Positions 25,701 to 62,350 of a stretch of DNA of 64,000 bases are shown here, piece by piece. This DNA is from Heptranchias perlo (Eukaryota). The translations under genes and the position numbers were made by a program. Where the stretch lies: positions 41,540,001 to 41,604,000 of the forward strand of contig NC_090333.1 of NCBI RefSeq assembly GCF_035084215.1, in the 5' to 3' direction. Position 1 is the stretch's first letter; the number at the start of each line of letters is the position of its first letter. The notes under the pieces are model-generated. The model did no database searches. It was not told where the DNA came from and saw nothing but the letters and a program-made list of their open reading frames with translations.

Positions 25701-27660
25701 CCTAATTGGATCCATTTACGTGATCTTCCGGGTTCCCCACTGCTGATCTGCGCGTCGGGCGGGCTGCGCATGCACAGTAAGCTCTGTCAGCTGGAGGAGC
25801 TCTATTTAAAGGGGCAGTCCTCCACTGACAGATGCTGCAACAAATAGAAAAAATTACAGCATGGAGCAGCCCAAGGGGAAGGCTGCTCCCAGTTTAATGA
25901 TGCCTCACTCCAAGTATCATTAGATGGGGTGAGGAGGAGGGGGAGGACAGAGATCTTCCCCCCGGCGGGCGGGAGGAAGCGGCCTGCCTCTGCCACCAGG
26001 AAGGCCTGGCTCGAGGTGGCAGAGGAGGTCACCAGCACCACCAACATATTGCCCACCTGCCAACAGTGCAGGAGGCGCTCCAATGACCTCAGTAGGTCAG
26101 CCAAAGTGAGTACACTTACTCATTCCCCTACACTCCATCTGCCACATCACCGCCCCCACCCCACACCTCCTTCTGCACTGCCAACACTACTCTGTCACAT
26201 CACCCCTTATACCCACTCAAACCTCATCCTCATCTTACCTGAACTTACTCACCTCGCCAGTACTCATCCCGCCACTACCACTCAACCCAATCCTCATACA
26301 ATCTCATGGCTCTATCTCATACTCACCCTCTCGTGCATCTCTTTCACGGTCAGCCTCACTCAACCTGCCACTACCTGTGCTGCAGCCACAGGGCATGCAT
26401 CACATATGTGCAGTAGGCAGCGTAAGGCAAACGTGTCGTGAGCATGAAGGGGATGCACAAGGGTGTTTGAGGGTTTGTCATGGTTTTTACTTAAATTGAA
26501 TTTCTGACCAACTCACATTACATATTATATTGGCACCACTACTGCCACGTCTTTGCGAATCTTGTCTGGTTTGTGCAATAATGCCCTTTCCTGAGGATCA
26601 CTATGAAGACCCATAACTGATGCCACTCATTGTGTCACTGCAGAGTGGGTGTAGGTGTATTTGCAGGGCTCTTTTGTGCAGACGACTGAGAGACGTCGGC
26701 GATGTCCCCGGTGGCACCCTGGAAGGATGCGGATGAGAAGTTGTTGAGGGCAGTGGTGACTTTGACAGCGACAGGTAAGAAGATGGTGCTCGGGCCAACC
26801 GGGAGCAGCTCGGCATGAAGGAGGCTGCAGATGTCCACGACTACATGTCGAGTGACTCTGAGCCTCCGTGTGCACTGCTGCTCAGAGAGGTCCAGGAAGC
26901 TGAGCCTCGGTCTGTGGACCCTGTGGCGAGGGTAGTGCCCTCTGCGACGCATCTCTCTCTGCGGTTGCCCTCCCTCCTGCTGTACAGGTGGATGTGTCAC
27001 AGCACTCTGTTGTGGAGCTCCACGTGTCAGAGGTGGACGGCGAGACTGGTGATGCTGTTCGCCCTCCGAGGAGGTCATGACTGCAGCTACGGCGGCCCCC
27101 ATCCGGAAGATGTACATCTGAGGGGGTCCGCAAGGTAGGTAAGTATGTCCTCACACCGGGGTTGCGGTTCCAGGTTGGTGAATTTTCTTGTTAGGAGGAG
27201 GGTGATGGAGGCCAAACTTTGTCCAATGTGACGGAGTGGCCACCTGTCGAATGCACCTTTGCAGCTGCCACAGGCTGCTGGCTGCAACACCTCCGTTTGA
27301 ACTGGGAGTGTTTCCCCCAGTATGGGAAACAGTCTCAGTTCAGTGTAAAATCCCACCCCTCCTAATAAAACAGCTCAATCAGGTCTGTAAACGACCTGAA
27401 CGAGCAACATAAATACTTTCAAGTGGCATCCCGCTGGCTTTAATTGCCTGCGGGATTCCCACCTGCGGGGGCTGCGTGCGCACGCCGGCGCGTCAGTGGG
27501 GAACCCAGAAGTGGGCGGTTTGGAGCCGGGCTCCGGTCCCGCTCCGGGATTCCCCGATTTTCAGAGCCCCCCCGCCAGGAACGCACCCGATAGCGGGTGC
27601 TAAAATGATGCCCTTTAAATGCATTAGGGATGTCCCCTAATTAACATAAAATTCCAGGCC
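22725..27660. mobile_element. Old degenerate autonomous-type Harbinger: Myb/SANT gene on + (from ~22740) and HARBI1-like DDE transposase on - (~24845-25600)
   Basis: Plus strand: RVDLFG..AWREVTE..ARTWEQVR/KNFSEL. Minus strand: INGIHVAV..FMNRKKFHSISVHIVSD..YPGSYNDSFIL..LKQRFRCL..KIIVAACFIHNF, with in-frame stops. A candidate right end aaaattccaggcc|TAA lies at 27648-27660. The left end was not found. Confidence 0.7.
25601..27613. mobile_element. Younger non-autonomous Harbinger (2.0 kb), copy 1
   Basis: Imperfect TIR gggctcgatgttagca / tgctaaaatgatgccc. Myb/SANT exon from ATG 25861 (KAWLEVAEEV..CRRRSNDL). HARBI1 N-terminus on minus (LPVAVKVTTALNNFSSASFQGATGDIADVSQ), truncated before the DDE core. 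Confidence 0.88.
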
Positions 27661-36865: not shown

Positions 36866-38905
36866 GGGCTCGATTTTACCAGGCCTGCTGGTTTCGTTTC
36901 GGGAGCGTGGTCAACACGCTCGGTGAAATTAGTGGGTTGCCCGCGCGATCGTAGCAGGCAACCCACTAATTGGAGCCACTTACCTGCTCCTCCGGGGTCC
37001 ACGCTGCTGGTCTGCGCGTCGGGCGGGCTGCGCATGCGCAGTACGATCTGTCAGCTGGAGGCTCTCTAGTTAAAGGGGCAGTCCTCCACTGACAGATGCT
37101 GCAACCAATGGAACAAATTTCAGCATGGAGCAGCCCAGGGGGAAGGCTGCTCCCAGTTTAATGATGCCTCACCCCAGGTATCATCAGATGGGGTGAGGAG
37201 GAGGGCGAAGACAAAGATCTTCCACCCGGCGGGCGGGAGGAAGCGGCCAGCCTCTGCCACCAAGAAGGCCTGGCTCGAGGTGGCAGAGGGGGTCACCTGC
37301 GCAACCAACATATCGCCCACCTGCATACAGTGCAGGAGGCGCTGCAATGACCTCAGTAGGTCAGCCACAGTGAGAACACAAAGTCTTTCCCCTACACTCC
37401 ATCTGCCACAACACTGCCCCAACCCCACATCTCCTTCGGCACCGCCAACACTACTCTGTCACATCACCCCTCATACCCACTCAAACCCCATCCTCATCTT
37501 ACCTCCACCTACTCACCTCGCCAGTACTCATCCTGCCACTAACACGCAACCCAATCCTCATACAATCTCATGGCTCTATCCCATACTCACCCTCTCGTGC
37601 ATCTCCCTCACGGCCAGCCTCACTCAACCTGCCACCACCTGTGCTGCAGCCACAGGGCATGCATCACATATGTGCAGTAGGCAGCGTAAGGCAAATGTTT
37701 CGTGAGCATGAAGGGGGTGCACAAGGGTGTCGGAGGGTTTGCCATGGGTGGTACCTATATTGAATTTCAGAGCAACAAACAGCACACATTATATTGGCAC
37801 CACCACTGCCATGTCTCCGCGAATACTGTCTGTTGTGTCCAATAATGCCCGCTCCTGGGTATCACTATGAGGACCCACCACTGATGCCACCCATCGTGTT
37901 ACTGCAGAGTAGGTGCAGGTGTATTTGCAGGGCTCTTCCGCGCAGACCACTGAGAGACATCGGCGGTGTAGCCGGCTGCACCCTGGAAGGATGCGGAGGA
38001 GAAGTTGCGGAGGGCAGTGGTGACTTTGGCAGCGACAGGTAAGCACTTGTTGCTGGGACCAGGCAGGAGCAGCTCGGCATGAAAGAGCCTGCAGATCTCC
38101 ACGACTACATGTCGAGCGAATCTGCGCCTCCCTGTGCACTGCTGCTCGGAGAGGTCCGGGGAGATTCGCCTCGGTCTGTGGACCATGTGGCGAGGGTAGT
38201 GCCCTCTGCGATGCGTCTCTCTCTGCTGTAGCCCTCCCTCCTGCTGTGCAGGTGGGCGTGCAACAACCCCGTGTTGGGGGGCTCCACGTCTCTGCGGCGG
38301 ACGGCGTGGACTGCGAGGCTGCTGGGGCTGGTCATTCTGTTCGTCCTCCAAGGGTGTCCACGCACCACCCATCTGGCCGTTGTTGGTCTGAGGGGTTGTG
38401 CAGGGTAGGTGGGTGGTTCCTCAGACTGGGGCTGCAGTTTCGTGTCGGTCTGTCCTCTGGCTTGGCGGGGGGTGGTGGGGGGCAGGGGTTGCCCTATGTG
38501 ACGCGGTGGCCTCCTGTGTGGGTGAGGACTCTCCCCCGTGGGGTGCACCTTGGCACCTGCCACAGGCTGCTGGCTGCAACACGCCTGGTTGGAGAGAGAC
38601 TGTTTCCCCCAGTGTGGGAAACACGCTGCGATGCAGGTGAAATCCCACACTTCCTCTTTTGACAGCTGATTCAGCTCATTAACTGACCTCAACAAGCAAG
38701 GTAAGTACACTCAAGTGGAACCCCGCTGGCTTTAATTGCCTGCGGGATTCCCACCAGCGGGGGCCACGCACGCAGCCCCGCACGTCATCGGGGAACCCGG
38801 AAGTGGTCGGGATCACGGCGCGATCCGGTCACGTGACCTCAGATCAGGATTTTCGGGGCCCCCCCGCTGGAAACCCGCAGGAAACCCGACCCTAAAATCG
38901 AGCCC
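36866..38905. mobile_element. Younger non-autonomous Harbinger (2.04 kb), copy 2
   Basis: Perfect 13-bp TIR gggctcgatttta / taaaatcgagccc with a 3-bp TSD (CAT). Colinear with copy 1: Myb/SANT on +, truncated HARBI1 on -. Confidence 0.92.
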
Positions 38906-46770: not shown

Positions 46771-46964
46771 CTTTTTCCTACAATACTCAGGCCCAATCCC
46801 CTACCGACTTTCTTCTGAAGGTCCGCAAAAAACACATCTAAATTCTCCTCATCCTTGTACTGTGTTTCATCCCTGAAGATAGTGAGTCGCACCTTCTGTG
46901 GTGTCTGTCTCAATGCATTGATTGCTTCTTCGTGAGTTGCATTCCTTAAATCAATTCCGTTTAC
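46771..46964 (-). CDS. PATJ: PATJ coding exon (194 nt): [64 protein letters not shown]
   Basis: Bounded by ttag| and |gtaagt, phase 0-2. Contains the end of one PDZ domain and the GLGL loop of the next. Confidence 0.95.
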
Positions 46965-49159
46965 CTAACAAAAAGCAAAGTGAATCTCTCCAAGCTTTCC
47001 TCACAGATCAAGGTTTAAAAAGATAAATAAATTGAGCGGTCAAGGGGAGCTGCTGATGCCTCACATTTAGTATTGTATAATTAGCTCTTTTAAAATCTTT
47101 CCTTGTTTTTTCCACCTCTTTCACTACTCTTTCCTCCTCCCTACTATTTTCTGGCTTCTACTCTTCTCTTGATCCCCTCTTTAGGTTTTTTTCTTTTCTC
47201 CCTCCCTATTTTTATTTGTTCTCCTTTTGATTTGTATTTTACCATGCATAAACTGAAACTCGGAAAAGATAATGATCGCATATGCGTCCCAGTATAAAAA
47301 TGCAACACTGAAGGTGAAAAAACAGCAGCGAGGACGATAAGCTCTCAGGGCACACATACGAAGAGGCACACAAAATATTCAACCGAAGGCAAAACTGAAG
47401 GTTTGGGAATAGAGCAGAAGGAAAGCTCAAGGCCCTATGAGAGGGGATATCCATGCAGGCAAAATATATTTTAAGTACTGGAAAATGGGACAAGTGAGTT
47501 TATTGATAATTTTTGAGATTGATTTTTCATAATTGTTGAATTTTATTTTTAGGAATGTGTTGTGATGACCAAGATTTAGGGAAAAATAACTTTCAAAGGA
47601 ATGTGATTGATTTATCTTTTTATTAATGGAAATTTCTTGACTAATAGTAAAATAAGTGTTGAAATGTTTTTTGAAGGCTAGCCTTTTGAATGTGAAATTT
47701 GAACAAATCAGCATGGTTTATGCTCTACTGACATTTCGTGATGCATACAAGCAAGGCACAAACTTTTTTAATTATATAGATTAAGTTAGATCAAAGTGTG
47801 GTTAAACTGCATAATCACATATTATTTCTCTCTCTCTTTAGGTCTCCTTGCATTGTGAACCACTTAATGACGCAAGTTGATGTCTCTTTTCTATCTGCCA
47901 ATGTTGCTGTGTAACTGGCCACAAAGAGCTGAGTGTAAGTGGATGAGGTTCAATCACTTTCTGATTTTTCATCTGTCCACTGAAGAAGTGCCTCACTTTT
48001 GCACCATACCTCACTCCATACGTGACTGAACTCCGAACTCTCTGCAGGGAATCCTGAGCACAAACCACTCCACTACAGCAATGCACATTTATTTTTGATG
48101 AATAATTCAAAGGTGCAAGTGTGAATCTGGGTCATCGTGTTCTGTTGCCCAAATGTGGAAAAGGTTTAGATCTTTCCTGCTATTCAAATTTAAAACAAAG
48201 TGATTAAGTATCACTGTATACACCATAATTTTTTTAAGTATATAGTTGAAATATTCAGTCAGATAGCTGTTATTTTGCTATTTATTTAATAATTCCATTA
48301 AATTAGAGCACAAAATTGAAGTTTGTGTTTTCAGGTTATTTTTACCATCTTTGGTTCAATGGGTTGTGTGTTAAATATTGTATCTACACAGGCTAATCAA
48401 ATGTCCTCAGAATAGCTGAGTACAAATCAACAGGATTCCAATAGATGGCACACTTGACCAACATAAAATTTGTTGACAATGCCAGTTTCAGGAATTCAAA
48501 TAATTTAGTGCTGGCTGTCAGGAACCAAACATCCTTTTACAGCTTTCAAAATTCACACTCTCCTCAAAACAAGGCTTGTAAATTGCTACTAGGGATTAAA
48601 AACTGTAATGGAGCAATTGTACAGAAGATCAGTCATTCACAGTGGTCTAAAATACATCTGAAACCCTTTGATTTTGGAGTTGAACTCTATTTGCATCAAA
48701 AGGGTTAAACAGCATATGGACTAAAATGCCATGATGGCATATTTACTTTTTTAGCTATTTAACTCCTCATGGACTGATGTAAAATCTATTGGTCAGGAAT
48801 TCCCTCGCAATTTTCGGCACAACAATGGCATAAGAGCCATGTTGCGCCAGGTTTTTCTGATGAAATTGGTGTGCAAGTGACTTATGCTAGTTTTACACCA
48901 GATCCTCATTACGCACAAATTTCCTCGAGCATTTGCTTCGCTCCTGAGTTACGTCGGCCAAAACCCCACTCAGCTCATTAACATAGCTCCGCCCCATGCA
49001 AAAGAACGCGAGTTTCCTGTATTTACGCCAGTTCTGAACATTCGTAGTAATTTAAGGCCCAAATTTTAGACACAGCAGGTCTCGAAGTCACTATTTTTGG
49101 AGTTTAATAGTGATTGTTCTTCTGCTGAAGTTACACCAGTTTCCTGGTGAGTAAAGACC

Positions 49160-49640
49160 CCCCCTCCCCACTCCTTCCCTGACTCCTCCAACACCCTCCC
49201 CTCTCTTTCCCCCTTCCTCTCCTCCCTTGCTCTCTGTTCACCCTTTCCCCACCTTTCTCTCCTCTTTCCCAGTGAGCTACAGCTCACCAGGCTTACCATG
49301 CTGTGTCCCTACTTGTAGAAGTATAGATGATTCCCCTGAACTCCTGCAACACTCCAGTGTCCATCAATTCTTTCCCCACTCTTTGCTAGGTCTCTAACTC
49401 TCCTCTGGTTTCTTACTGTGCTTATTTTTCCTCTATCCTTTACCACCAGCCCCTAACTCAGCTCTCTTCCCCACTCTCCTTGGCTTCCATACGTTCTCCC
49501 CATCCCTCCCCACCTCCTCCCAGCCTCTAACCCTGGTCTACCTTCCCCACTCTTCTTGGCCTCTAATCATCCTCTCCATTCTCCCTCCAGCTTCTAACCC
49601 CATTTTACTTTCCTCCTGTGGTCTCTTCTAGCCTCTAACA
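49160..49640. repeat. CT-rich low-complexity tract
   Basis: Pyrimidine-rich, with loosely recurring cctctaac and ttccccactct units. Confidence 0.7.
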
Positions 49641-50775
49641 TCACAGTGCTTCGATGGCCCTGGTCCAATTATCTGCTGCCCTCTAGCCCAGATTGACGAA
49701 GACTGCACTTGATCAGTGAGGTTCACTTTTTTGTATTAGATATCTCTCTCACATTCTGAGGCTAATTGTTTCTTTGTTCATTGGGAGCTGCTTGTAAATA
49801 CCTTTCCTCAAAGTCAGAAAAACTGAGAGGAAGTGATTGGCTTTCTTTTGCTGTTTTTGTATTTTACACCTGTAACAAAGAGGGGTACTTTTAAGTGTGA
49901 CAGGCACACACTAGAAACATCCTCCTATAATAGCAGAAGCTGCATATATATCCTGATTGTCTGTCACAGTTCCAGTGTTACACTTTGGCATCTCACTGTT
50001 TTACTCATGCAATTTCTGTGTTATATACTTGCATTGATTGACTGAAGATTCATAAAACAGTGACATGCCAAGCAACAAATTAGCAGTCAATAATAGCTGC
50101 CAAAAGCAAGGAGCAGAAGGGGAGACAATCAAATCACTCTGAATTTTGTAAAATTGGTGTCCATGTTGATTTTTCCCCAAGCTGAAAATTTACAGGTAAA
50201 AGTGTCATTAGTAACCTAACCCCCCAAAAAGCAGGCAATTCTCAATAAAAAGCTTGCATTGCCTATATGGTGTTACAAATCTTTGATATGTTTATTTATA
50301 TTTTGCTTTTTTCAGTTGTAATTCGGTATTTTTGCAGTTTTAAAGATTGAATGATTAATAATTTTCTTTGTGACAAATTCAACAGGAGATTAGCTGTACC
50401 ATGTTATAATATACGTCATATTGTGTAACACAACTGTCGTTATAACACAGCATACCCTGTGACACATTGTGGGCAACTTCATAGGGGTCCACCAGTACAC
50501 ATAAATGCATCTAGTATGCATCCATTACACTTCCAAATGTCACAAGTATTAAAAAACAAAGAAAGACAGTCTTCTAGCTATCAGTTTTTTCAACCTTGAT
50601 AACTTAGCTTCTTTCCAGAGTAGGAGCTAGAGATTTACTAGCAGTTTTAATCAGTCTCTAATTAATCTTAAGATGTGCCCATATGGACCACTTCCCCATA
50701 GAAAGTGCCTTAGTACTGTGCTCCATGAACAACACCACAGGAAACCAGCTAGTATTTATCTAAAAATAGTATGTC

Positions 50776-52200
50776 ATAGGGACATAGGAACAGGAGTAGG
50801 CCATTCAGCCCTTTGAGCCTGTTCCATCATTCAATTAGACCATGGCTGATCTGTACCTCATCTCCATTTATCCACCTTTGCTCCATATCCCTTGGTATAT
50901 TTACCTAAATAAAATTTATCGATCTCAGTCATGAAGATTTCAACTGTCCAGCATTTGGGGACAGAGTTCCAGATTTCTACCACACTTTGCGTGAAAAATG
51001 GTTCCTGATTTCAGTCCTAAATGGCCTAGCTCTAATTTTAAGCTTATACCCTCTTGTTCTGGATTTCCCCACCAGAGGAAATAGTTTCTCTGTATCTACC
51101 CTATTGAATCCCTTTATCATTTTGAACACCTTGATTAGATCACCCATCGACCTTCTAAACTCAAGGGAATACAAGCCAAGTTTATGCAACCTGTCATCAT
51201 AATTTAACTACTTAAGCCCTGGTATCTCATTCAGGTGAATCTGTGCTGTACCCCTTCCAAGGCCAATATATCTTTCCTGAGGTTTGGTGCCCAAAATTGA
51301 ACGCAGTTCTCTGAATGGGATCTGACCAAGGCTCTGTACAACTGAAGGATCACTTTCTCACTTTTGAATTCCAACCCTCTTGAGATAAAGGCCAACATTC
51401 CATTATCCTTCTTGATTACTTTTTGTACTCATGCGTTAGCGTTTAGTGATTTGTCTACATTGACACCTAAATCCTTTTGTTCCTCCATGGCTCCTAGTCT
51501 CTCACTATTAAGAAAATATTAAGATTTGTCTTTCACAGATCCAAGTGGATGACCTCACACTTCCCCACATTGAACTCCATCTGCCTTAGTTTTGCTCACT
51601 CACTTACTGTCTATGCCACCTAGTAACTTCATGCTCCCATCCACACAACTTACTGTGCCTCCTAACTTAGTGTCATCTGCAAACTTCGATATACAACTCT
51701 CTATTCCTTCATCCAAGTTACATATATGGTGAAAAGCTCAGACCTCAGTAATGATCCATAGGAACACCACATGTCACATCGCACCAATCAGAACAAATCC
51801 TTTATCCCTACTCTCTGTCTTCTACCTCCCAATTACCGACCCATGTCACAAGGTTACCTCTAATTCCATGCGCTTTCATTTTTGCCAATAATCTCTTGTG
51901 CGGAACCTTATCAAATGCCTTCTGGAAGACAATACCCATAGACACTCCCCTATTCACCATGTAGTGACCTCCTCAAAATATTCAACTAGATTAGTCAGAC
52001 GTGACCTATCCTTCACAAATCCATGCTGACTCTCTTTGATCAGCTAATATTTCTCCTAGTGCTCAGTCAATCTGTCTCTGATGATAGATTCCGGTAACTT
52101 CCCCACAATTGATGTTAAGCTGACAGATCTGTAATTACCTGGTTTCTCCCTCCCTCTGTTCTTAAATAATGGAGCATCATTTGCAATTTTCCAATCCAAA
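50776..52200 (-). mobile_element. CR1 LINE ORF2 3' portion, degenerate
   Basis: LGLYSLEFRR..GDLIKVFKMIKG. Tail taggaacaggagtaggccattcagcc. Confidence 0.85.
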
Positions 52201-52489
52201 GGCACCTGCCACCCTTTCTTTCAAAAGTCCTATGCTAACAGTGCCTATGAATTTTTCCAGGTTAATTGTGTCTGTACCTGGTGGTACCAGCCCGATCATG
52301 CTTTTAGTAGGATTTCCCCATTAACATGATGACCTGTGACGCTGAAATTCCATGATCTGTCCACTAGGTGTGTCTGCAATTTCAGGTCTCTCAAACTCCT
52401 CTGGTTCCCATCTTACTACAGGTAAGTAGGTGAGTTTTAAAACAATTTTTTAAAAAACATTTTTAAAAAATCCTCCAGGAGACCAAAAC

Positions 52490-53190
52490 CATTGTATTTT
52501 CCCCCACCTCCACAAACTCCACTCTCTTGCCACTAATTCCATTGTCTGCCCAGCTACTCTCAGGCTGAACCAGAGTGTTCATGATCACAGTATCCTGTTT
52601 GAGCCTTGGTTGACCTTCAGACCCCATCACAAAGATGCCTTTCTTCCATCTCTACAACATCACCTCAGCTCCTCTGTCACTAAAAATCCTTATACATGTC
52701 TGCGTCACTTCCAGACTCTAATCTAATGGCATCCTGTCCCGCATTAAGCCCAACTTGCCCCTCATTGCGGTTCTTGCTGACCTACATTAGGTCCCTGCTC
52801 CCCAATGCATCAAGTTTAAAATCCATGTCGTTGTCTTTAAATCCCTCCTTGGCCTTGCCCCACCTCATCTCCTCAAGCCCTATGACCACCCCCGAACTTT
52901 CAGTTCCTCTGACTCCAGCCTCTAGTACATCCCCTTCCCTTTGGCCAAGCAATGGGAGCAGAGCCTTCGGTTGCCTCAGATTTCCCTCTGGAATTCCTTC
53001 CTAAATCCCTCCATCTCTTCACCTCTCTCCTTTAGAAACCTTCTCAAAACCCATCTCTTCTGTCAAGATTTTGGTCACTCCCAATTAATTTCTCCTTTCT
53101 TGACTCTGCATCTGTTTTCAATGTGCCTCCTGTGAAGTACTTTGGTTTTTTAAAAAAATGTTAATGGTGCCATATAAATGGAAGTTACAG
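52490..53190 (+). mobile_element. L2-type LINE 3' fragment
   Basis: cttgctgacctacatt..ctttaaatccctcc..cttctcaaaacccatctcttc..ttttggtcac. Confidence 0.6.
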
Positions 53191-54610
53191 TTGTGACATT
53201 GGTAAACATGGTGTGACAAGGATTAAGACACTGGTATTCATGCTGAGACAGGGCTATGGTGACATAAGTAAGGTGAGGAAGGAATTGTGAGGAAGGTTTT
53301 TTGGTTGCTAACAAAAAGTAAGACAAATAATGAGAGAGAGGAAGTTGAGATAAAATGAATAAATTGTTTTTAGGCCAACCTACTAGAGTGAAAAATAAGT
53401 TAGTTTCCTAAATGATATTAATCCTGGTGCTATTAATGGAGCATTTATAAATTGCAAATAAATACCTGCAATATAAAGCAAAACAGATTAAAGGGTAAGT
53501 AAAAGCCCTTAAGGTCTGAATAATGCTGATGCTGAACACTAGTTGATAATGCTGAACATTATCTGTTAATGCTGATTCTGCCTGCCTGTGACAGCTGAGT
53601 GGTTTGGTATGCACGTACAGGCACATATACAGCTTCTGATATGTCCATTTTTCAATGTCTGATGCCAGGAAGTCACTTGTCTAATCTGCTAATTAGTGGG
53701 CACTTCAGTGTTTACAGATGATTGAACAGAACAGATGGATTTGTCCTGGCATTCACATTTTAAAAAATAAATAATTTTTTGGTAATAATGGGCCACTTAT
53801 TAAATCTGTTCATAATCTGATTAACATTTCTTAAAGTAACTGACATAGCAGGTAGTTGGACAGATATACAATGGACAAGCATGTAACATAATGTCAGCAC
53901 GTCCAGCGGCTGTACTGTGATGCTAACTGCTTGAACATGTACAGATCAGTAATAGATTATTTTATATTCTCCAGCCACCTTTCATTTTTCATTAAAAAAT
54001 ATTATGAAAAAACACTAAGCTGTTCAAATTCGACAGTCATTTCTCTTCATGCACAATTTTTCTACCATTAAATCTTGGTAAAAGAAATATTCTTCACAGA
54101 CAGATATAGTACTTTTTTTTCTATTAATGACAAAGAACAGCACAGAAATCACAGGTAAACACATACTTCTCTTTGTACACAAGTTGAACAACTGTTTTCA
54201 GGTAAAGGCAACGACAGCAAGGACGGATGCCTCAGAAATTTGACTCTGGTGTTTGCTAGGGCACACAAAGCTGGAGTAATTACATTTGTGTACTAACAGA
54301 CAAGATAGCAGTTTCTCACAACCTAATGCACACTCCAGCAATATATACAACCCGCGATGTTCTATTTGCATTACTTCTTGACTTAGCAGTTGCAACCTAA
54401 CTGATTCAGATCTAAGTCAAGTATTTTTGATCAACCTAACTATACTCCCAGTTTTATAAACATAATTCCTAACTTTATCAAGTAATGGGCCGGAACTTGC
54501 TCCGACCGGCGTCGCGAGGCTCTCTGCACACCATGCGGATAAAAAATATGAATATATTCACTGCATAGGCCACAACGTCCATTTGCTTAATTTTGAAATC
54601 TTCTCCAGTA

Positions 54611-55292
54611 GCGCACTCCAAGATCAGCGCAGGCCGTGTGCGCTCCGAGATCAGCGCAGACCGTGTGCGTTCCTAGATCAGCGCAGGCCGTGTGCGTTCC
54701 GAGATCAGCGCAGGCCGTGTGCGTTCCGAGATCAGCGCAGGCCGTGTACGTTCCGAGATCAGCGCAGGCCGTGTGCGTTCCGAGATCAGCGCAGGCCGTG
54801 TGCGTTCCGAGATCAGCGCAGGCCGTGTGCGTTCCGAGATCAGCGCAGGCCGTGTGCGTTCCGAGATCAGCGCAGGCCGTGTGCGTTCCGAGATCAGCGC
54901 AGGCCGTGTGCGTTCCTAGATCAGCGCAGCCCGTGTGCGTTCCGAGATCAGCGCAGGCCGTGTGCGTTCCTAGATCAGCGCAGCCCGTGTGCGTTCCGAG
55001 ATCAGCGCAGGCCGTGTGCATTCCGAGATCAGCGCAGGCCGCGAGCGCCCCGAGATCAGCGCAGGCCGTGTGCGCTCCGAGATCAGCGCAGACCGTGTGC
55101 GTTCCTAGATCAGCGCAGGCAGTGTGCGTTCCGAGATCAGCGCAGGCCGTGTGCGTTCCGAGATCAGCGCAGGCCGTGTGCGTTCCGAGATCAGCGCAGG
55201 CCGTGTGCGCTCCGAGATCAGCGCAGGCCGTGTGCGTTCCTAGATCAGCGCAGGCCGTGTGCGCTCCGAGATCAGCGCAGGCCGTGTGCACG
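54611..55292. repeat. Minisatellite, 27-bp unit GATCAGCGCAGGCCGTGTGCGTTCCGA, ~25 copies
   Basis: Directly visible. Head-to-tail units with no spacers. Confidence 0.97.
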
Positions 55293-55831
55293 TGCAAAGA
55301 CTGTGAGAATGGAAGCCCCGCCCAGAAACAGGCAAGTAATACTCATTCATTTAAAGTGACATTCCCTATGTTAGTCTAAATAAAAAATTAACATCACAAC
55401 ATACCTTATTATAAAAAGGCAAGGAAATTATTTATAATGTACTGAAACATACAGAAATTAAAAGTTACATTTTAAAAAATGTTTTAATAATTTTAATGAT
55501 CAAAAAATATTAAAATAGAAATAATTAGACAGTCCACATTTTTAAAATTTAATTTTTTGTTGTTTTGCAGTCATTATAAGTTTCCGTGCTTTTAAAAAGT
55601 AGTGTAGGGCTATTATTTTCAAGCATACCTTCTCATGGCATTAGTATCTTCGTTCCAGCTGGACAGATGGGTAAATTAATGATTGTTTGGTGATTGTGTT
55701 TGATTGTATTGATTGTGGCATGGTTGGCCCTTTAATTTGGGATTGTCAAAATGCTGTTGAACCTATCAGAGCAAGTTCGCGATTTCTGGCTTTTAATGCG
55801 CATGTGCGCATTCGTGAACTTGCTCCGATAG

Positions 55832-56061
55832 CCATGATGTGGAGATGCCGGTGATGGACTGGGGTTGACAATTGTAAACAATTTTACAACACCAAGTTAT
55901 AGTCCAACAATTTTATTTTAAAATTCACAAGCTTTCGGAGGCTTCCTCCTTCCTCAGGTGTACATTCACCTGAGGAAGGAGGAAGCCTCCGAAAGCTTGT
56001 GAATTTTAAAATAGAATTGTTGGACTATAATCTATCGGAGCAATTGTAAAATTGTTTACAA
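55832..56061. mobile_element. Penelope-like terminal (pLTR) inverted repeat
   Basis: Arms ~55897-55960 and 55967-56030 are near-perfect reverse complements. Flanked by the direct repeat TTGCTCCGATAG at 55820-55831 and 56062-56073. Confidence 0.8.
55964..56004 (+). ncRNA. Minimal type I hammerhead ribozyme motif (mirror copy on the - strand at ~55923-55963)
   Basis: Stem I ATTCAC/GTGAAT, core CTGAGGA, stem II GGAGG-aag-CCTCC, GAAA, palindromic AAGCTT in place of stem III, cleavage triplet CUU. Confidence 0.7.
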
Positions 56062-56699
56062 TTGCTCCGATAGATTCGACGGCGGTTGGAATGGACGCCA
56101 TTAAGGAGCGGCGTCCACGGTAAGTAAGTTCTGGGCCAATGTAACAGTTGGATTTTTATCCTTAGTCTAGTTGTGCAGTTATACTGTTACTTCCCCCGCT
56201 GTCCACCAAAACATTGTTGTCATTTATTATTCCAGTAAAATAATAAAATCATTTATCCAGGGTTATCTTTAAAGGAAAAAAATAATCACTCTCTGTTATT
56301 GTAGCAGAAGTTTCAGTTTCATTGATGTCTTATAAACAATGCATTCAGGGGAACAGTCATTTATTAGGATGAAAGGAAACTCTACATCTAAATCTTTCTT
56401 CAATACAATAGCATGACTAGAAGCTCAAATGGCAGTTCTGTGGATGAATATGTTCTGGAAAGATATGAAAGGTGATGGTTCAAACTGTAATTGTAAACTG
56501 AAACATTTGTGGCTCAGACGTATGCTGACGAAAATTGTGAACTGAATGAGAACTATAAAGAGCCAAATTATCCCATACTAACCTGAACTAAATAGTTATG
56601 ATACTCAGCAGGGTTACAAAATGCTAACCATATGAGATTTACAGTAATATTTTCTGCAGCATTTATAAAGCGATTTTTTTTGAATGCCGAGAACACAGC

Positions 56700-59600
56700 A
56701 AATTGTTGCATGGTTGTCTTTTAAAATTAGGAACATAAGAATTTACAGGTCTAGAATAGACATTGGAAAGGAGAAACAAGGTGAACAGAAGACTGGGAGA
56801 GACAAATAGCACTAGAGTAAAGAATAGTTCAGAAATAGGAAGAATCAAACGGGGAGCAAATGAGAGGTAGTCTAAGATGAGTTTGGAGTGCATGTGTGTA
56901 ACTGCACATAGCGTGGTGAATAAAGTTGGTGAGCTGCAGGCACAAGTCGCCACATGGGACCATGATATAGAGGCAATAACAGAGATCCGGCTCGAAGAAG
57001 GGGAGGAATGGGTACTTAATCGTCCAGGAATGATAGGGGAGGAAAAAAAGGAGGGGGGTTAGCAGTATTGATCAAAGAAACTATTATAGCACTGGAAAGG
57101 GATGATGTAGTTGAGGGGTCAAAGACAGAATCTATTTGTCTTACAATTAAGGAACTTCTGAGGAGCTATTATGCTACTGGGTGTATACAATAGGCCACCA
57201 AATAGTGGGAAGGAGCTAGAGGAACAAATTTGCAGGCAAATTACAGGAAGATGTCAGAACTATAGAGTAGTGATAATAGGGTTCTTCTATTATACAAACA
57301 TAGACTGGGACAGTAACAGTATAAAGGGCATAGAGGGGGAAGAATTCCTGAAATGTACCTGAGAACTTTCTTGATCAGTGTGTTTCCAGCCCAACCAGGA
57401 AGGAAGCAGTGTTAGATCTAGGTCTGGGGAATGAAGTGGGGCAAGCAGAGCATGTTTCAGTGGGGGAGCATTTGGGGAACAGTGATCACAATATCAATAG
57501 GTTTAGAGTAGTTATGGAAAATGACAAAAAACAATCAAATGTGAAAATACTAAACGGGAGAAGGGGCAATTTCAGTGAGTTAAGAAGGGATCTTGCTCTG
57601 GTGGATTGGAATCAAAAATTGGTAGGCAAAATTGTAATTGAACAAGGAGGTAATGGTTCAGGTACAGAGTAGGCACATTCCCACAAGGGGGGAAAGGAAG
57701 GACATCTCAAGCTAGAACTCCCTGGATGACTAAAGATGTAGATATTAAAATGAAACAGAAAAGGAAGGCTTATGGCAAGATTCATAATACAGTAGAGAAC
57801 CAAACTAAATACAGAAAGTATAGAGGAGATCAAAAAAGACAATAAAAGGGGCAAAGAGAGAGCATGAGACTAGATTAGAGGCTAACATAAAACGGAACCC
57901 AAAAATCTTTTCTAAATATATAAATAGTAAAAGGGTAGTCAAAGGAAGGGTGGGGCTGATTAGGGACGAAAAAGATAATCTTGTAGAGGCAGAGGGTACA
58001 GCTAAGGTACTAAATGAATACTTCGCATCAATCTTCACTAGAAAAGAGAATGCTGCCAATGTAACAGTAAAGGAGGTAGGAGTGATATTGGATAGGATAA
58101 AAATAGATAAAAAGGAGGTACTTAAAAGGATGGCAGGACTCAAAGTAGAAAAGTCACCCAGTCCAGATGGAATGCATCCTAGGTTACTGAGGGAAGAAAT
58201 TGTGGAGGCTCTGGCCACAATTTTCCAATCCTCCTTAGATATGGGGGCAGTGCCAGAGGACTGGAGGATTGCAAATGTTACACAGCCTTGTTCAAAAAGG
58301 GGAGAGGGATAAGCCCGGCAAATACAGGCCAGTCAGCCTAATGACGGTAGTGGGGAAACCTTTGGAGACAATAATCCGGGACAAAATTAATTGGAACTTG
58401 GAAAAGTATGGGCTTATAAATGAAAGTCAGCATGGATTCATTAAAGGAAAATCGTATTTGACTAACTTGAGTTCTTTGATGAAGTAACAGAGAGGGTTGA
58501 TGAGGGTAGTGTGGTTGATGTTGTGTATATGGACTTTCAAAAGGCATTTGATAAAATACCACATAATAAACTTGTAAGCAAAATTAAAGCCCATGGAATT
58601 AAAGGGACAGTGGCAGTGTGGATACAAAATTGGCTAAGGGACAGAAAGCAGAGACTAGTGGTGAACGGTTGTTTTTCAGACTGGAGGGACGTATACAATG
58701 GTGTTCCACAGGGGTCGGTATTAGGACCATCGCTCTTTTTGATACATATTAACGACCTGGACTTGGGTATAAAGGGTATAATTTCCAAGTTTGCAGATGA
58801 CATGAAACTCGGGAATGTAGTAAACAACGTGGAGGATAGTAACAGACTTCAGGAAGACATAGACAGACTGGTGAAATGGGCAAAAACATGGCAGATGAAA
58901 TGTATCTCAGAGAAATGTGATGTGATACATTTTGGTAGGAAGATCAGGAGGAGCAATATAAACTAAACGGTACAATTTTGAAGGGGTACAGGAACAGAGA
59001 GACCTGGGGGTGTATGTAAACAAATCTTTGAAGGTGGCAGAACAAGTTGAGAAGGCTGTTTAAAAAGCATATGGAATCCTGGGCTTTATTAATAGAGGCA
59101 TAGAATACAAAAGCAAGGAAGTTATGCTAAACCTTTATAAAACACTGGTGAGACCCCAGCTGGAATATTGTTTCCAATTCTGGGTACCACATTTTAGGAT
59201 GGTTGTCAAGACCTTAGAGAGGGTAGGGAGGAGATTTACTAGAATGGTACCAGGGATGAAAGACTTGTCATGTGGAGAGACTAGAGAATCTGGGGTTGTT
59301 CTCCTTAGAGCAGAAAAGGTTAAGGGGAGATTTGATAGCGGTGTTCAAAATCATGAGCGGTTTTGATAGAATAAATAAGGAGAAACTGGTTCCAGTGGCA
59401 GAAGGGTCGGTAACCAGAGGACACAGATTTAAAGTGATTGACAAAAGAGCCAGAGGTGACATAAGGAAACATTTTTTTTTATGCAGATGTGTTATGATCT
59501 GGAATGCATTGCCTGAAAGGGTGGTGGAAGCAGATTCAATAATAACTTTCAAAAGTGAATTGGACAAATATTTGAAGGGAAAAATTTACAGTGTTATGGG

Positions 59601-59790
59601 GAAAGAGGAGGGGATTAGGACTATAGTTTAATAGAATGTAGGTGATTGCTGGCATTGGAAGGTTAAATAGAATCTACAGCACAGAAACAGGCCATTCGGC
59701 CCAAGTGGTCCAATTGGATAGCACTTTCAAAGAGCTGGCACAGGCACGATGGGCCGGATGGCCTCCTTCGGTGCTGTAACATACTATGAT
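56700..59790 (+). mobile_element. CR1 LINE with near-complete but frameshifted ORF2 (EN + RT)
   Basis: GVYNRPPNS, SDHN, YRPVSL, YMDFQKAFDKIPH, GVPQGSVLGP, KFADD and a 3' tail. Confidence 0.92.
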
Positions 59791-60534
59791 AATGGTCCAT
59801 CTAGCTGATCCCAAAGTTTGAAAAATGGAGTACTCTAACCATACATGGCAACCTTGAAATCTAGCAAAAACTGACCGATAATGCCAAAAAAGTCAACACA
59901 GTTACAGAAAAGCTGATGACTTTAAAGCACATAATCAATTTATAGGAAGAAAAATAACTGAAATACATGAAAATGTATTTTGCAGCAATTGTGGATTCAA
60001 AAATTTCTGAAGAGGGAACCAAGTGCGAATGACAAAATATATTTTCTATTCTCTGGGGAAGCACCTGTTAATGAGTCAACATCCTCACTCCAATCGTGCC
60101 TGCTAAACTAGGGAGTATGACACACGTTAAAAATGAGCTACAGGCATTTGTGGTGGAGCTTGCTGCAGGAAGTTTTAAATGGGGCGTTGCTAGCTCTGCT
60201 GATTTTTCACATCAAACACAAATTGTTGGCAAGTATGATTGTCTCGCATAACACTCAATCCTTTATTTATAGGAACAAATTCTTAGATTAAAAGTTCAAC
60301 CCTATTGTACGGAAACTGATGTATAAAAATCACATGAAGTAACTTTTTTTTTAAAAACTATCAATTTTCCAGAAGGAGTGGGGTAAAAATGTTTTTCCAT
60401 AGTTTAAAAAAAAGTTCTGTGTTTCAGTAATATGTGAGCTAAATTATTGTAACCTATCAATTTAGTTAATTAAATTGAAGTAATAATCAGCCGCATTAGA
60501 TGGGTGAATGGTCGTAGAATAACCAGAAACACAG

Positions 60535-60985
60535 TAGTGTGATGGTTATAGCACTGGATTAGCAACTGAGGAGTCCTGATTTCAAATCATGAAGTTATGA
60601 AATTGAACTTAATAAATCTGGGAATCTGATGGCTAATACCAGAAAACTAACCATTAAAACTGCTATTTTGTTGTAAAAACTCATTTGGTTCATAAATATC
60701 CTTCACTAAATATAGCCAGCCACCCCAACCCAGTTCGGCCTACACATTACTCTAGTCCCATATTACATGCCCTCTGGAGTGGCCCAGGAACACACTCGGT
60801 TGTAAAGTGTCAGCCTTGGCTCAGGGTTACCACTCTTGCCTCTAGGATTAGAAGTTTGTACATTCAGGCCCCACTGCAGGACTTAAGCATATCATCTAGT
60901 CTAACACTTCAGTCCAGTATTGAGGGAGTGCCGCACTGTTGGAGGTGCCATCCTTTGGATGAGATGTTAAACCGAGGCCCCCACT
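60535..60985 (+). mobile_element. tRNA-derived SINE fragments, including a Deu-domain SINE at ~60810-60983
   Basis: tgagggagtgccgcactgttggaggtgccatcctttggatgagatgttaaaccgaggcccc matches the Deu domain as I recall it. Confidence 0.65.
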
Positions 60986-61620
60986 AACAACATCTTGGGG
61001 GCGTCACATTGACTAGAAGATTAACTGCATAAGCCATATCAACACTGTGGCTACGAGAGCAGGGCAGAGACTAGGTACGTTTTGATGAGTGGTTCACCTC
61101 TTGATCCCACAAAGCCTCTACAGGGCTCAAGTCAGGAGTGTTTATGGAATACTCACCATTCATCTGGATGGGTGTAGCTGCAACAACAATCAAGAAGGTC
61201 AGCACCATCCAGGATAAAGCAGGTTGCTTGATTAGCGCCCCATAGATTCAATATCCTCCCCCTGCATAAATAACACACTGTATGCTCTATCTACAGGGTG
61301 CGGTGTAGCAACTCAACAAGGTTACTTTAACAGCACCTCCCTGATATGCGACCTCCATCACCAGAGAAGGATAAGAATAGCAATGTTGTGGGGAACACCA
61401 TCACCTCTAAGTTCCCTTCCAAGTCACATGCTAGCCTGACTTAGACATATATTGTCATTCCTTCATATCCTGCAACTCCCTACCTAATACCATTGTGGGT
61501 GCACCATCAGAACAAGGACTGCAGCAGTTAGAAAAGAAGGCCCACCAGCACCTTCTTAGGGCAACTAAGGATGGGCAATAAATGCAGGTTTGTTAGCATC
61601 ATCCAAAATCCAAGAACAAT
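60986..61620 (+). mobile_element. Older, decayed LINE family B 3' fragment
   Basis: Colinear with 3240-3920. Tail gggcaactaaggatgggcaataaatgc. Confidence 0.8.
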
Positions 61621-62266
61621 TTTTTAAAAATACTGCTGTGCACACTGGTGAATGAGTAGCTATGCATATCACTTCCACTTAAATGCTAAAAATGGCTTAC
61701 ATGCATAACATCCACAGACAGTTGTTGACTATTATGGCACAATTTTAGTAGCTAATGGCAAACATAAAATGACAACTGGTGAGAAAAATGACAATTGTAG
61801 GCATCAGGTATTTAACTTGTGTGGAACATCCAGGAGGTTCGACTTGATTTCTTTGGAAAAGAGTTAACTTTGAGGTGATCTGATTGTTTTCAAGATTATG
61901 AATAGAATTGACCAAATTGATCCAGACAATCTGTTCAATGTGGTGATTAGGTTCAAATACTGGATATGCACGTTAAAAATTAGGAATTTAGAAATAAGAG
62001 GGAATTAGGTGAAAGAAATCTCACCCAAAGCGTAATGGACTTTTGAAATTAGTTATCATGGAAAGTCATTCAAACAGTCAGTATCAACAGATTCAAGAAG
62101 AAAATGGATGTATTTCTGGAGAGAAAACGGGTCGAGTGATGTGGTGAGAAGGTGAGTAGGTGAGGTCTATCTCTGAAAAAGGAACCCGTTTCTTAGATTT
62201 AATTGCCTTTAACTATAATTTTTTGGTCTTAGGCATTGCATGAGCAAAAAATAATGCAACACTCAC

Positions 62267-62350
62267 CTCCAAGATTTGGTCCCCAGCCCAGAGCCTGCTG
62301 TCTTTAGCAGCTGCACCCTCTTCATACACTTCATGAATAACTATTGCGTC
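62267..62350 (-). CDS. PATJ: PATJ coding exon (84 nt): [28 protein letters not shown]
   Basis: Manual translation of the minus strand. Bounded by tttcag| and |gtgagt, phase 0-0. PDZ core motif matches PATJ/MPDZ as I recall them. The gene continues upstream beyond the window. Confidence 0.93.

What the first reader, a model, noticed from the sequence alone, without database searches (positions are those of the whole stretch)
55820..56076. Fold-back pair of hammerhead-ribozyme motifs (Penelope terminus) inside a PATJ intron
Seen: a ~64-bp-arm inverted repeat with a 6-nt loop. Each arm carries CTGAGGA-a-GGAGG/aag/CCTCC-GAAA-GCTT-GTGAAT. The + copy has a perfect 6-bp stem I (ATTCAC/GTGAAT). The - copy, which is sense to the PATJ pre-mRNA, keeps only CAC/GTG. 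Known: Penelope-like elements carry minimal type I hammerheads whose palindromic stem III (here AAGCTT) is completed by dimerisation, and they often leave inverted pLTRs. Inference: a transcript from either strand contains one ribozyme plus its own antisense. The long hairpin should compete with the catalytic fold, which may be why the motif is tolerated in a host intron.
Basis: partly seen in the sequence, partly recalled or inferred. Interest (0 to 1): 0.7.

Follow-up and report, generated by a model that had tools for sequence, protein, structure and literature searches.

The report
Mirror-image stub of shark Penelope retrotransposon
This hairpin in a PATJ intron is one of thousands of short mirror-image insertions left by a very abundant Penelope-type jumping gene, so the site itself is ordinary, although the family's copies suggest the mirror image is likely made by copying the element's RNA from both cut DNA strands at once.

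Summary
In detail: a 64-nt inverted repeat (98%, 6-nt loop), two minimal hammerhead motifs, inside a 15.3-kb PATJ intron. It is a 230-bp head-to-head insertion of the terminal repeat (pLTR) of a Penelope-like element (RT, CxxxxCxxC, GIY-YIG; probably Neptune), flanked by a 12-bp target duplication inside an older repeat whose empty sites were found. The genome holds 29,300 exact copies of the element end and 2,754 exact back-to-back hammerhead junctions. In 39 of 44 such loci one arm ends near +85 and the other near +122 (the start codon). Arm 5' ends peak 29 nt after a TATA box, not at the cleavage site. Best mechanism (inferred): two cDNAs, primed on the two strands of a 12-13-nt staggered cut from uncleaved RNA, joined head to head. 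The hammerhead covaries across subfamilies, and here the hairpin is predicted to bury it by about 60 kcal/mol. The 'hairpin explains tolerance' idea is weakened: PATJ also holds sense hammerheads without a covering antisense arm. The architecture is published (PMC3846280, PMC8557442, PMC4209133). This scan noted the same pattern before (294 notes, at least 26 genomes).

The parts
55820..55831 (.). Left copy of the 12-bp target-site duplication
   Evidence: Duplicated at 56062-56073; present once in 10 of 11 other copies of the host repeat, the eleventh being interrupted there
55832..55960 (-). Long arm: pLTR from -3 (relative to hammerhead C3) through the tail to just past the ORF start codon (about +122); sense to PATJ pre-mRNA
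   Evidence: 97-98% identical to family copies; ATG at +121 in full-length copy L133
55923..55960 (-). Minimal hammerhead motif, - copy; stem I cut to 3 contiguous bp; predicted cut after 55929
55961..55966 (.). Hairpin loop at the head-to-head junction: arms meet at -3 and -8 with one extra base, or a -8/-8 join that later lost 4 nt
   Evidence: the two readings are inferred from the sequence
55962..56061 (+). Short arm: pLTR from -8 to about +85, lacking the tail
55964..56004 (+). Minimal hammerhead motif, + copy: stem I 55964-69/55999-56004, core 55970-76, stem II 55978-90, GAAA 55991-94, cut after 55998
56029..56043 (+). Templated patch: reverse complement of target DNA 56062-56076 replacing about 7 nt of the arm; makes the 22-bp second hairpin
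   Evidence: (I2)
56062..56073 (.). Right copy of the target-site duplication; its first 3 nt are shared with the arm end
54483..56143 (.). Older dispersed host repeat into which the stub inserted
   Evidence: 758 candidates, 40 scored; extents
46965..62266 (-). PATJ intron inside a PDZ domain

Best explanation
The feature is a 230-bp head-to-head insertion of two truncated terminal-repeat copies of an abundant Penelope-like retrotransposon, flanked by a 12-bp target duplication, and it was likely written by two separate reverse-transcription starts, one on each strand of the cut DNA. Shown: identity, TSD, empty sites, one long (+122) and one short (+85) arm, and the same design in thousands of copies. 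Inferred: the element's protein, probably as a dimer, nicks both strands 12-13 nt apart; one 3' end primes at +122 and the other at +85; both cDNAs run through the intact hammerhead to the RNA 5' end, predicted at an initiator 29 nt after a TATA box; the two cDNA ends are trimmed and joined, often through 1-3 nt of microhomology. The hammerhead is a selected part of the active element, but at this locus it is a passenger: on either strand the antisense arm is transcribed first and is predicted to bury it.
For: Family size: 29,300 exact 3'-end matches, 12,412 exact hammerhead matches, 2,754 back-to-back junctions. Full-length copy L133: 902-aa ORF, RVT_1 E 2.5e-10, YIDD, DKG, CHGNLCKTC and GIY-YIG-type motifs; its 5' pLTR runs into the ATG and its 3' pLTR stops at +85. 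In a sample picked by the 3' end only, 45 of 76 copies carry an inverted arm and 40 of those 45 arms end at +76 to +94. In 44 loci picked by the junction only: 39 long+short, 1 short+short, 0 long+long, 4 with a broken arm (re-binned by eye; 39 of 40, p 7e-11); TSD 12-13 bp in 26 of 44. Arm 5' ends: 20 of 88 exactly 29 nt from the TATA box, 37 of 88 at 27-30, 3 of 88 at 25 or less; 1-3-nt overlaps in 25 of 44 junctions. The tail-less arm reaches further 5' in 19 loci, the long arm in 13, equal in 12. About 5 of 44 loci have arms that look like different subfamilies (by eye). The anole PLE cuts and extends both strands, has two start sites bounding the tail, is predicted to be a dimer and uses uncleaved RNA (PMC11167929). 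Hairpin -110 to -116 kcal/mol against -47 to -51 with the hammerhead forced.
Against: No RNA 5'-end data: the start site rests on motif spacing and on where junctions end. The peak is weaker in the 3'-end sample: 13 of 32 short main arms start 27-30 nt from the TATA box, 6 of 32 at 23 or less, and 19 of 76 arms run past the TATA box, which needs read-through templates. The junction pattern capped the gap at 30 nt, which favours short arms. 31 of 76 copies show no inverted arm by my threshold. All sampled loci come from the start of one contig. Mixed-subfamily arms could be later gene conversion. The two-strand biochemistry comes from a different clade (Poseidon).
Confidence: 0.8

Rival explanations
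1. Snap-back: one cDNA primed at +122 runs off the RNA, folds back on itself and copies itself to +85, where it is resolved.
For: Arms of one locus are identical in 22 of 41 loci against 468 of 1640 cross-locus pairs; small overlaps at junctions; a stem-loop lies just before +85. Craig 2021 ascribes the tail to endonuclease resolution (PMC8557442).
Against: It requires the long arm to reach at least as far 5' as the short arm, but the short arm reaches further in 19 of 44 loci. Some loci have arms of different subfamilies.
Confidence: 0.1
2. Self-priming on an antisense transcript, as proposed for Adineta Penelopes, makes the head-to-head palindrome.
For: Proposed in PMC3846280 from palindromes at inverted junctions; palindromic centres are common here too.
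Against: It does not predict arm ends at a sense-strand initiator 29 nt after the TATA box or the strict +85/+122 pairing. Later biochemistry shows target-primed copying from two sites (PMC11167929).
Confidence: 0.05
3. The PATJ copy is a retained regulatory switch: the hairpin silences a ribozyme that would otherwise cut the pre-mRNA, or yields small RNAs.
For: The hairpin is strongly favoured. Inverted Penelope copies give siRNAs in Drosophila (PMC3681739).
Against: One of 2,754 such junctions; 14 hammerheads in the PATJ region alone, two of them sense without a covering arm; the sense copy here has lost half of stem I; it sits inside another repeat about 6 kb from the nearest exon; no test of conservation in other species was possible.
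Confidence: 0.04

Closest known systems
Endonuclease-positive Penelope-like insertions with inverted pLTR, one-sided tail and TSD (Adineta Pen2a_Av, PMC3846280; scheme in PMC8557442 Fig. 2 legend)
   Same: Head-to-head inverted pLTR, 30-40-bp tail on one end, TSD, TATA and initiator motifs in the pLTR, pLTR reaching the ORF start
   Different: Here both arms are stubs of about 95-130 bp with no ORF between them, the TSD mode is 12-13 bp (8-10 bp in the Adineta examples), and the form is the majority product of a family with tens of thousands of copies
Minimal hammerheads of metazoan PLEs (PMC4209133)
   Same: Type I core, extra nucleotide between 9 and 10.1, G10.1-C11.1, palindromic 15.2-16.2, no stem III in the monomer; the paper also notes pairs on opposite strands about 100-700 bp apart
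   Different: Stem II of 5 bp and stem I of 6 bp; the two cores here are only 12 nt apart; activity untested
Anole Poseidon PAc (PMC11167929)
   Same: Two end positions about 37 nt apart bounding the tail; copies pass through the hammerhead uncut
   Different: PAc is Poseidon, its ORF starts inside the hammerhead and its start sites lie 111-118 nt into the ORF; here the ATG is at +121, at the outer site. The parts I read do not link the two sites to inverted arms
Non-LTR retrozymes (10.64898/2026.07.22.740005)
   Same: Short pLTR-derived, hammerhead-bearing, ORF-less units
   Different: Retrozymes are head-to-tail monomers or arrays; this is a head-to-head product with a locus-specific junction

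Membership tests
EN+ Penelope-like element | Single ORF with RT and C-terminal GIY-YIG endonuclease in the family | tested here: met
   902-aa ORF in L133; RVT_1; GIY-YIG seen as a motif by regex, with no Pfam hit at E 0.001
EN+ Penelope-like element | pLTRs flanking the ORF, direct or inverted, with one-sided tail | tested here: met
EN+ Penelope-like element | Target-site duplication, single at the empty site | tested here: met
   12 bp
Neptune clade | CX2-5CxxC linker between RT and endonuclease (shared with Nematis; PMC8557442) | tested here: met
   C-x4-C-x2-C at residue 753
Neptune clade | RT phylogeny groups with Neptune references | not tested
   No reference set fetched, no tree built
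Minimal type I hammerhead | Core CUGANGA, GAAA, NUH with stems I and II and palindromic 15-16 | tested here: met
   N7 varies G/C across subfamilies
Minimal type I hammerhead | Compensatory changes in stems I and II | tested here: met
   93.5% of cells paired, 5 of 11 pairs with two-sided changes, 0 of 500 shuffles reach the covariation score; 32 of 83 variants, picked by me, related sequences, so indicative only
Minimal type I hammerhead | Mg2+-dependent self-cleavage | not testable with these tools
   Needs in vitro assay; no genomic pile-up of arm starts at the cut
Rfam hammerhead families | Covariance-model score | tested here: not met
   No hammerhead family up to E 10
Non-LTR retrozyme | Head-to-tail tandem units | tested here: not met
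   Head-to-head arms with one TSD
miRNA precursor | Rfam gathering score | tested here: not met
   All matches below threshold

The most novel reading that the evidence does not exclude
Each Penelope integration is a coordinated two-strand event in which one enzyme subunit primes at the outer start site and the other at the inner one, sometimes on different RNAs, and both copy uncleaved RNA to its capped 5' end. The thousands of fold-back stubs are then a genomic record of the transposition intermediate and of the element's transcription start.
Probability: 0.6. Interest if true: 0.5.

Novelty: new member of a known kind. Interest (0 to 1): 0.22.

Why it matters
The locus itself carries no sign of a PATJ-specific role. 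The family matters modestly: how Penelope-like elements make inverted repeats and one-sided tails is still described as unresolved, and the strict +85/+122 pairing, the 12-13-bp stagger and the arm ends at a predicted initiator give predictions that an existing in vitro system can test. Thousands of perfect intronic hairpins are also a likely source of double-stranded RNA in this genome.

Tried and rejected
Rfam: no hammerhead hit. RNA evidence: the one run search gave contigs only; the four best holders are one sample whose RNA status is a guess. They hold the family at high depth but not the locus flanks, and cannot show starts, ends or strand: no verdict on expression or cleavage. Cleavage-site pile-up (lead from e1-9162017 and e1-9022233): 591 fold-backs are centred near the cut, but 0 of the 50 listed have both arms starting at G1.1, while 8 centre on the AAGCTT palindrome and 7 on AAATTT (counted by eye); no main arm of 76 starts at +29. 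Not supported here, not excluded for single loci. A spliced-intron end as the cause of the 5' pile-up (as in D. virilis, PMC4209133): rejected by eye, no AG at that position in the subfamilies. The -8 peak is partly an artefact of a single reference and was redone with subfamily references. The edit-distance figures were wrong (free end gaps) and were replaced. Nearest-neighbour energy does not favour the double hammerhead (-24.1 against -32.9 for the best dimer), but it ignores tertiary contacts. Six literature searches listed no paper whose title or opening abstract text quantifies paired use of the two start sites; subscription papers are not covered and supplements were not read.

Full report
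Observation. The inverted repeat is real: 55897-55960 pairs with 55967-56030 over 64 nt at 98%, with 6 nt between. Both arms carry a minimal type I hammerhead. The + copy has a 6-bp stem I and a predicted cut after 55998; the - copy has 3 contiguous bp. Rfam finds no hammerhead family, only sub-threshold hairpin matches. My descriptor found 14 motifs in the 244 kb around PATJ and 0 in each of 10 shuffles. The host gene is PATJ: an exon matches InaD-like protein at E 2.4e-36. The flanking exons end at 62267 and begin at 46964 on the - strand. The genome is 3.25 Gb; 'shark' is my inference from the repeats and PATJ, and earlier scan notes use the same label.

What it is. The arms are the terminal repeat of a Penelope-like element. 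Copies that reach further upstream run into RT and GIY-YIG-type coding sequence. A full-length copy (L133) has a 902-aa ORF with RVT_1 and YIDD, DKG, C-x4-C-x2-C and GIY-YIG-type motifs. The zinc-finger-like linker marks Neptune or Nematis (PMC8557442, passages); no tree was built. Numbering from hammerhead C3, the ATG is at +121. The family has 29,300 exact matches to a 34-nt end motif, 12,412 to the hammerhead core and 2,754 back-to-back junctions against 2 controls.

Anatomy at this locus. The insert spans 55832-56061 between 12-bp duplications at 55820-55831 and 56062-56073. Ten of 11 other copies of the host repeat read straight through with one copy of the 12-mer. The long arm runs on - from -3 to just past the ATG. 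The short arm runs on + from -8 to about +85, with a patch (56029-56043) copied from the adjacent target.

Family pattern. Of the first 100 listed end-motif places I fetched about 90; 76 distinct copies passed the script's motif. Of these, 45 have an inverted arm, and 40 of the 45 end at +76 to +94. Separately I took 44 of the first 50 listed junctions (one near-duplicate and the last five left out). The script's bins gave 30 long+short. Counting arms of +129 to +139 as long and +93 as short gives 39 long+short, 1 short+short, 0 long+long and 4 with a broken arm; 39 of 40 against one half gives p 7e-11. TSDs are 12-13 bp in 26 of 44. Arm 5' ends lie 29 nt from the TATA box in 20 of 88 arms, 27-30 nt in 37, and 25 nt or less in 3; 25 of 44 junctions overlap by 1-3 nt (two loci lacked a matching reference). 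Position 29 is the A of an initiator-like motif in the commonest subfamily (consensus recalled). The peak is softer in the end-picked sample: 13 of 32 short main arms at 27-30, 6 at 23 or less, and 19 of 76 arms pass the TATA box. No main arm starts at the cleavage site, and 0 of 50 listed fold-backs near it have both arms starting there (by eye).

Mechanism. Shown: the paired +85/+122 ends, the TSD length and the 5' edge. Inferred: two cDNAs are primed on the two strands of a staggered cut, one at each start site; they copy uncleaved RNA to its 5' end and are joined by end-joining. This fits the anole element, which cuts and extends both strands, starts at two sites bounding the tail, is predicted to be a dimer and does not need hammerhead cleavage (PMC11167929, parts 1-2 of 4 read). 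Snap-back of one cDNA is disfavoured because the tail-less arm reaches further 5' in 19 of 44 loci (long arm 13, equal 12). About five loci also have arms resembling different subfamilies. Arms are nonetheless usually alike (identical in 22 of 41 loci against 468 of 1640 cross pairs), as expected from one donor.

The ribozyme. Among 227 motif copies there are 83 variants (the core was required by the search, so its invariance is by construction). At this locus the hairpin (-115.5 and -110.1 kcal/mol) beats the best fold with a hammerhead (-51.4 and -47.4), and the antisense arm is transcribed first on either strand. But of six sense hammerheads in the PATJ span, two lack a covering antisense arm, so the hairpin is not needed for tolerance. 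Metazoan minimal hammerheads cleave poorly in vitro (PMC4209133, parts 1-2 of 4 read). RNA runs gave contigs only and no verdict.

Comparison. Inverted pLTR, one-sided tail, TSD and TATA plus initiator are described in PMC3846280 (passages), the scheme in PMC8557442 (passages), and opposite-strand hammerhead pairs in PMC4209133. Retrozymes (10.64898/2026.07.22.740005; outline and first part of Results) are tandem and differ. siRNAs from inverted Penelope copies are reported in PMC3681739 (passages). Supplements were not read; those of PMC4209133 may already list similar fish motifs. A sequence look-up of earlier scan notes found nothing. A word look-up found 294 similar notes in at least 26 genomes; they agree with the reading I had logged before and pointed me to PMC3846280 and to the cleavage-site test. 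They are not independent support.

Verdict. Real and correctly identified, but an ordinary member of a known kind. Interest 0.22 for the locus. The family-level mechanism, if confirmed, would deserve about 0.5.

Noticed in passing
window 54483-56143: Older dispersed repeat hosting the insertion; its ends look like short terminal inverted repeats (MITE-like, by eye), with an internal 20-bp inverted repeat at 55763-55831.
   Followed up: partly
window about 54600-55300: 27-nt minisatellite of about 24 units expanded inside the host repeat; other copies of the repeat hold about one unit.
   Followed up: partly
L149 (about 211700-213900 in window-continued numbering): Two sense-oriented hammerheads with 6-bp stem I lie 205 nt apart in the PATJ span, a dimer-competent arrangement; one has an inverted partner 1.7 kb away, the other only an inverted tail.
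   Followed up: partly
window 56029-56043: Templated inversion of target DNA inside the short arm, perfecting a natural stem-loop into a 22-bp hairpin; looks like a template switch during or after integration.
   Followed up: partly
L133:154-156, run X6: Contigs of a related organism show extra letters within stem II, hinting at a longer stem II in its family.
   Followed up: no
L014 and L015; L048 and L105: Duplicated copies with identical flanks, probably carried by segmental duplication or by another repeat.
   Followed up: no
window 25800-27200 and 37070-38700: Two related decayed repeats with open frames, and many CR1-like LINE fragments across the window (labels recalled, not searched).
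   Followed up: no
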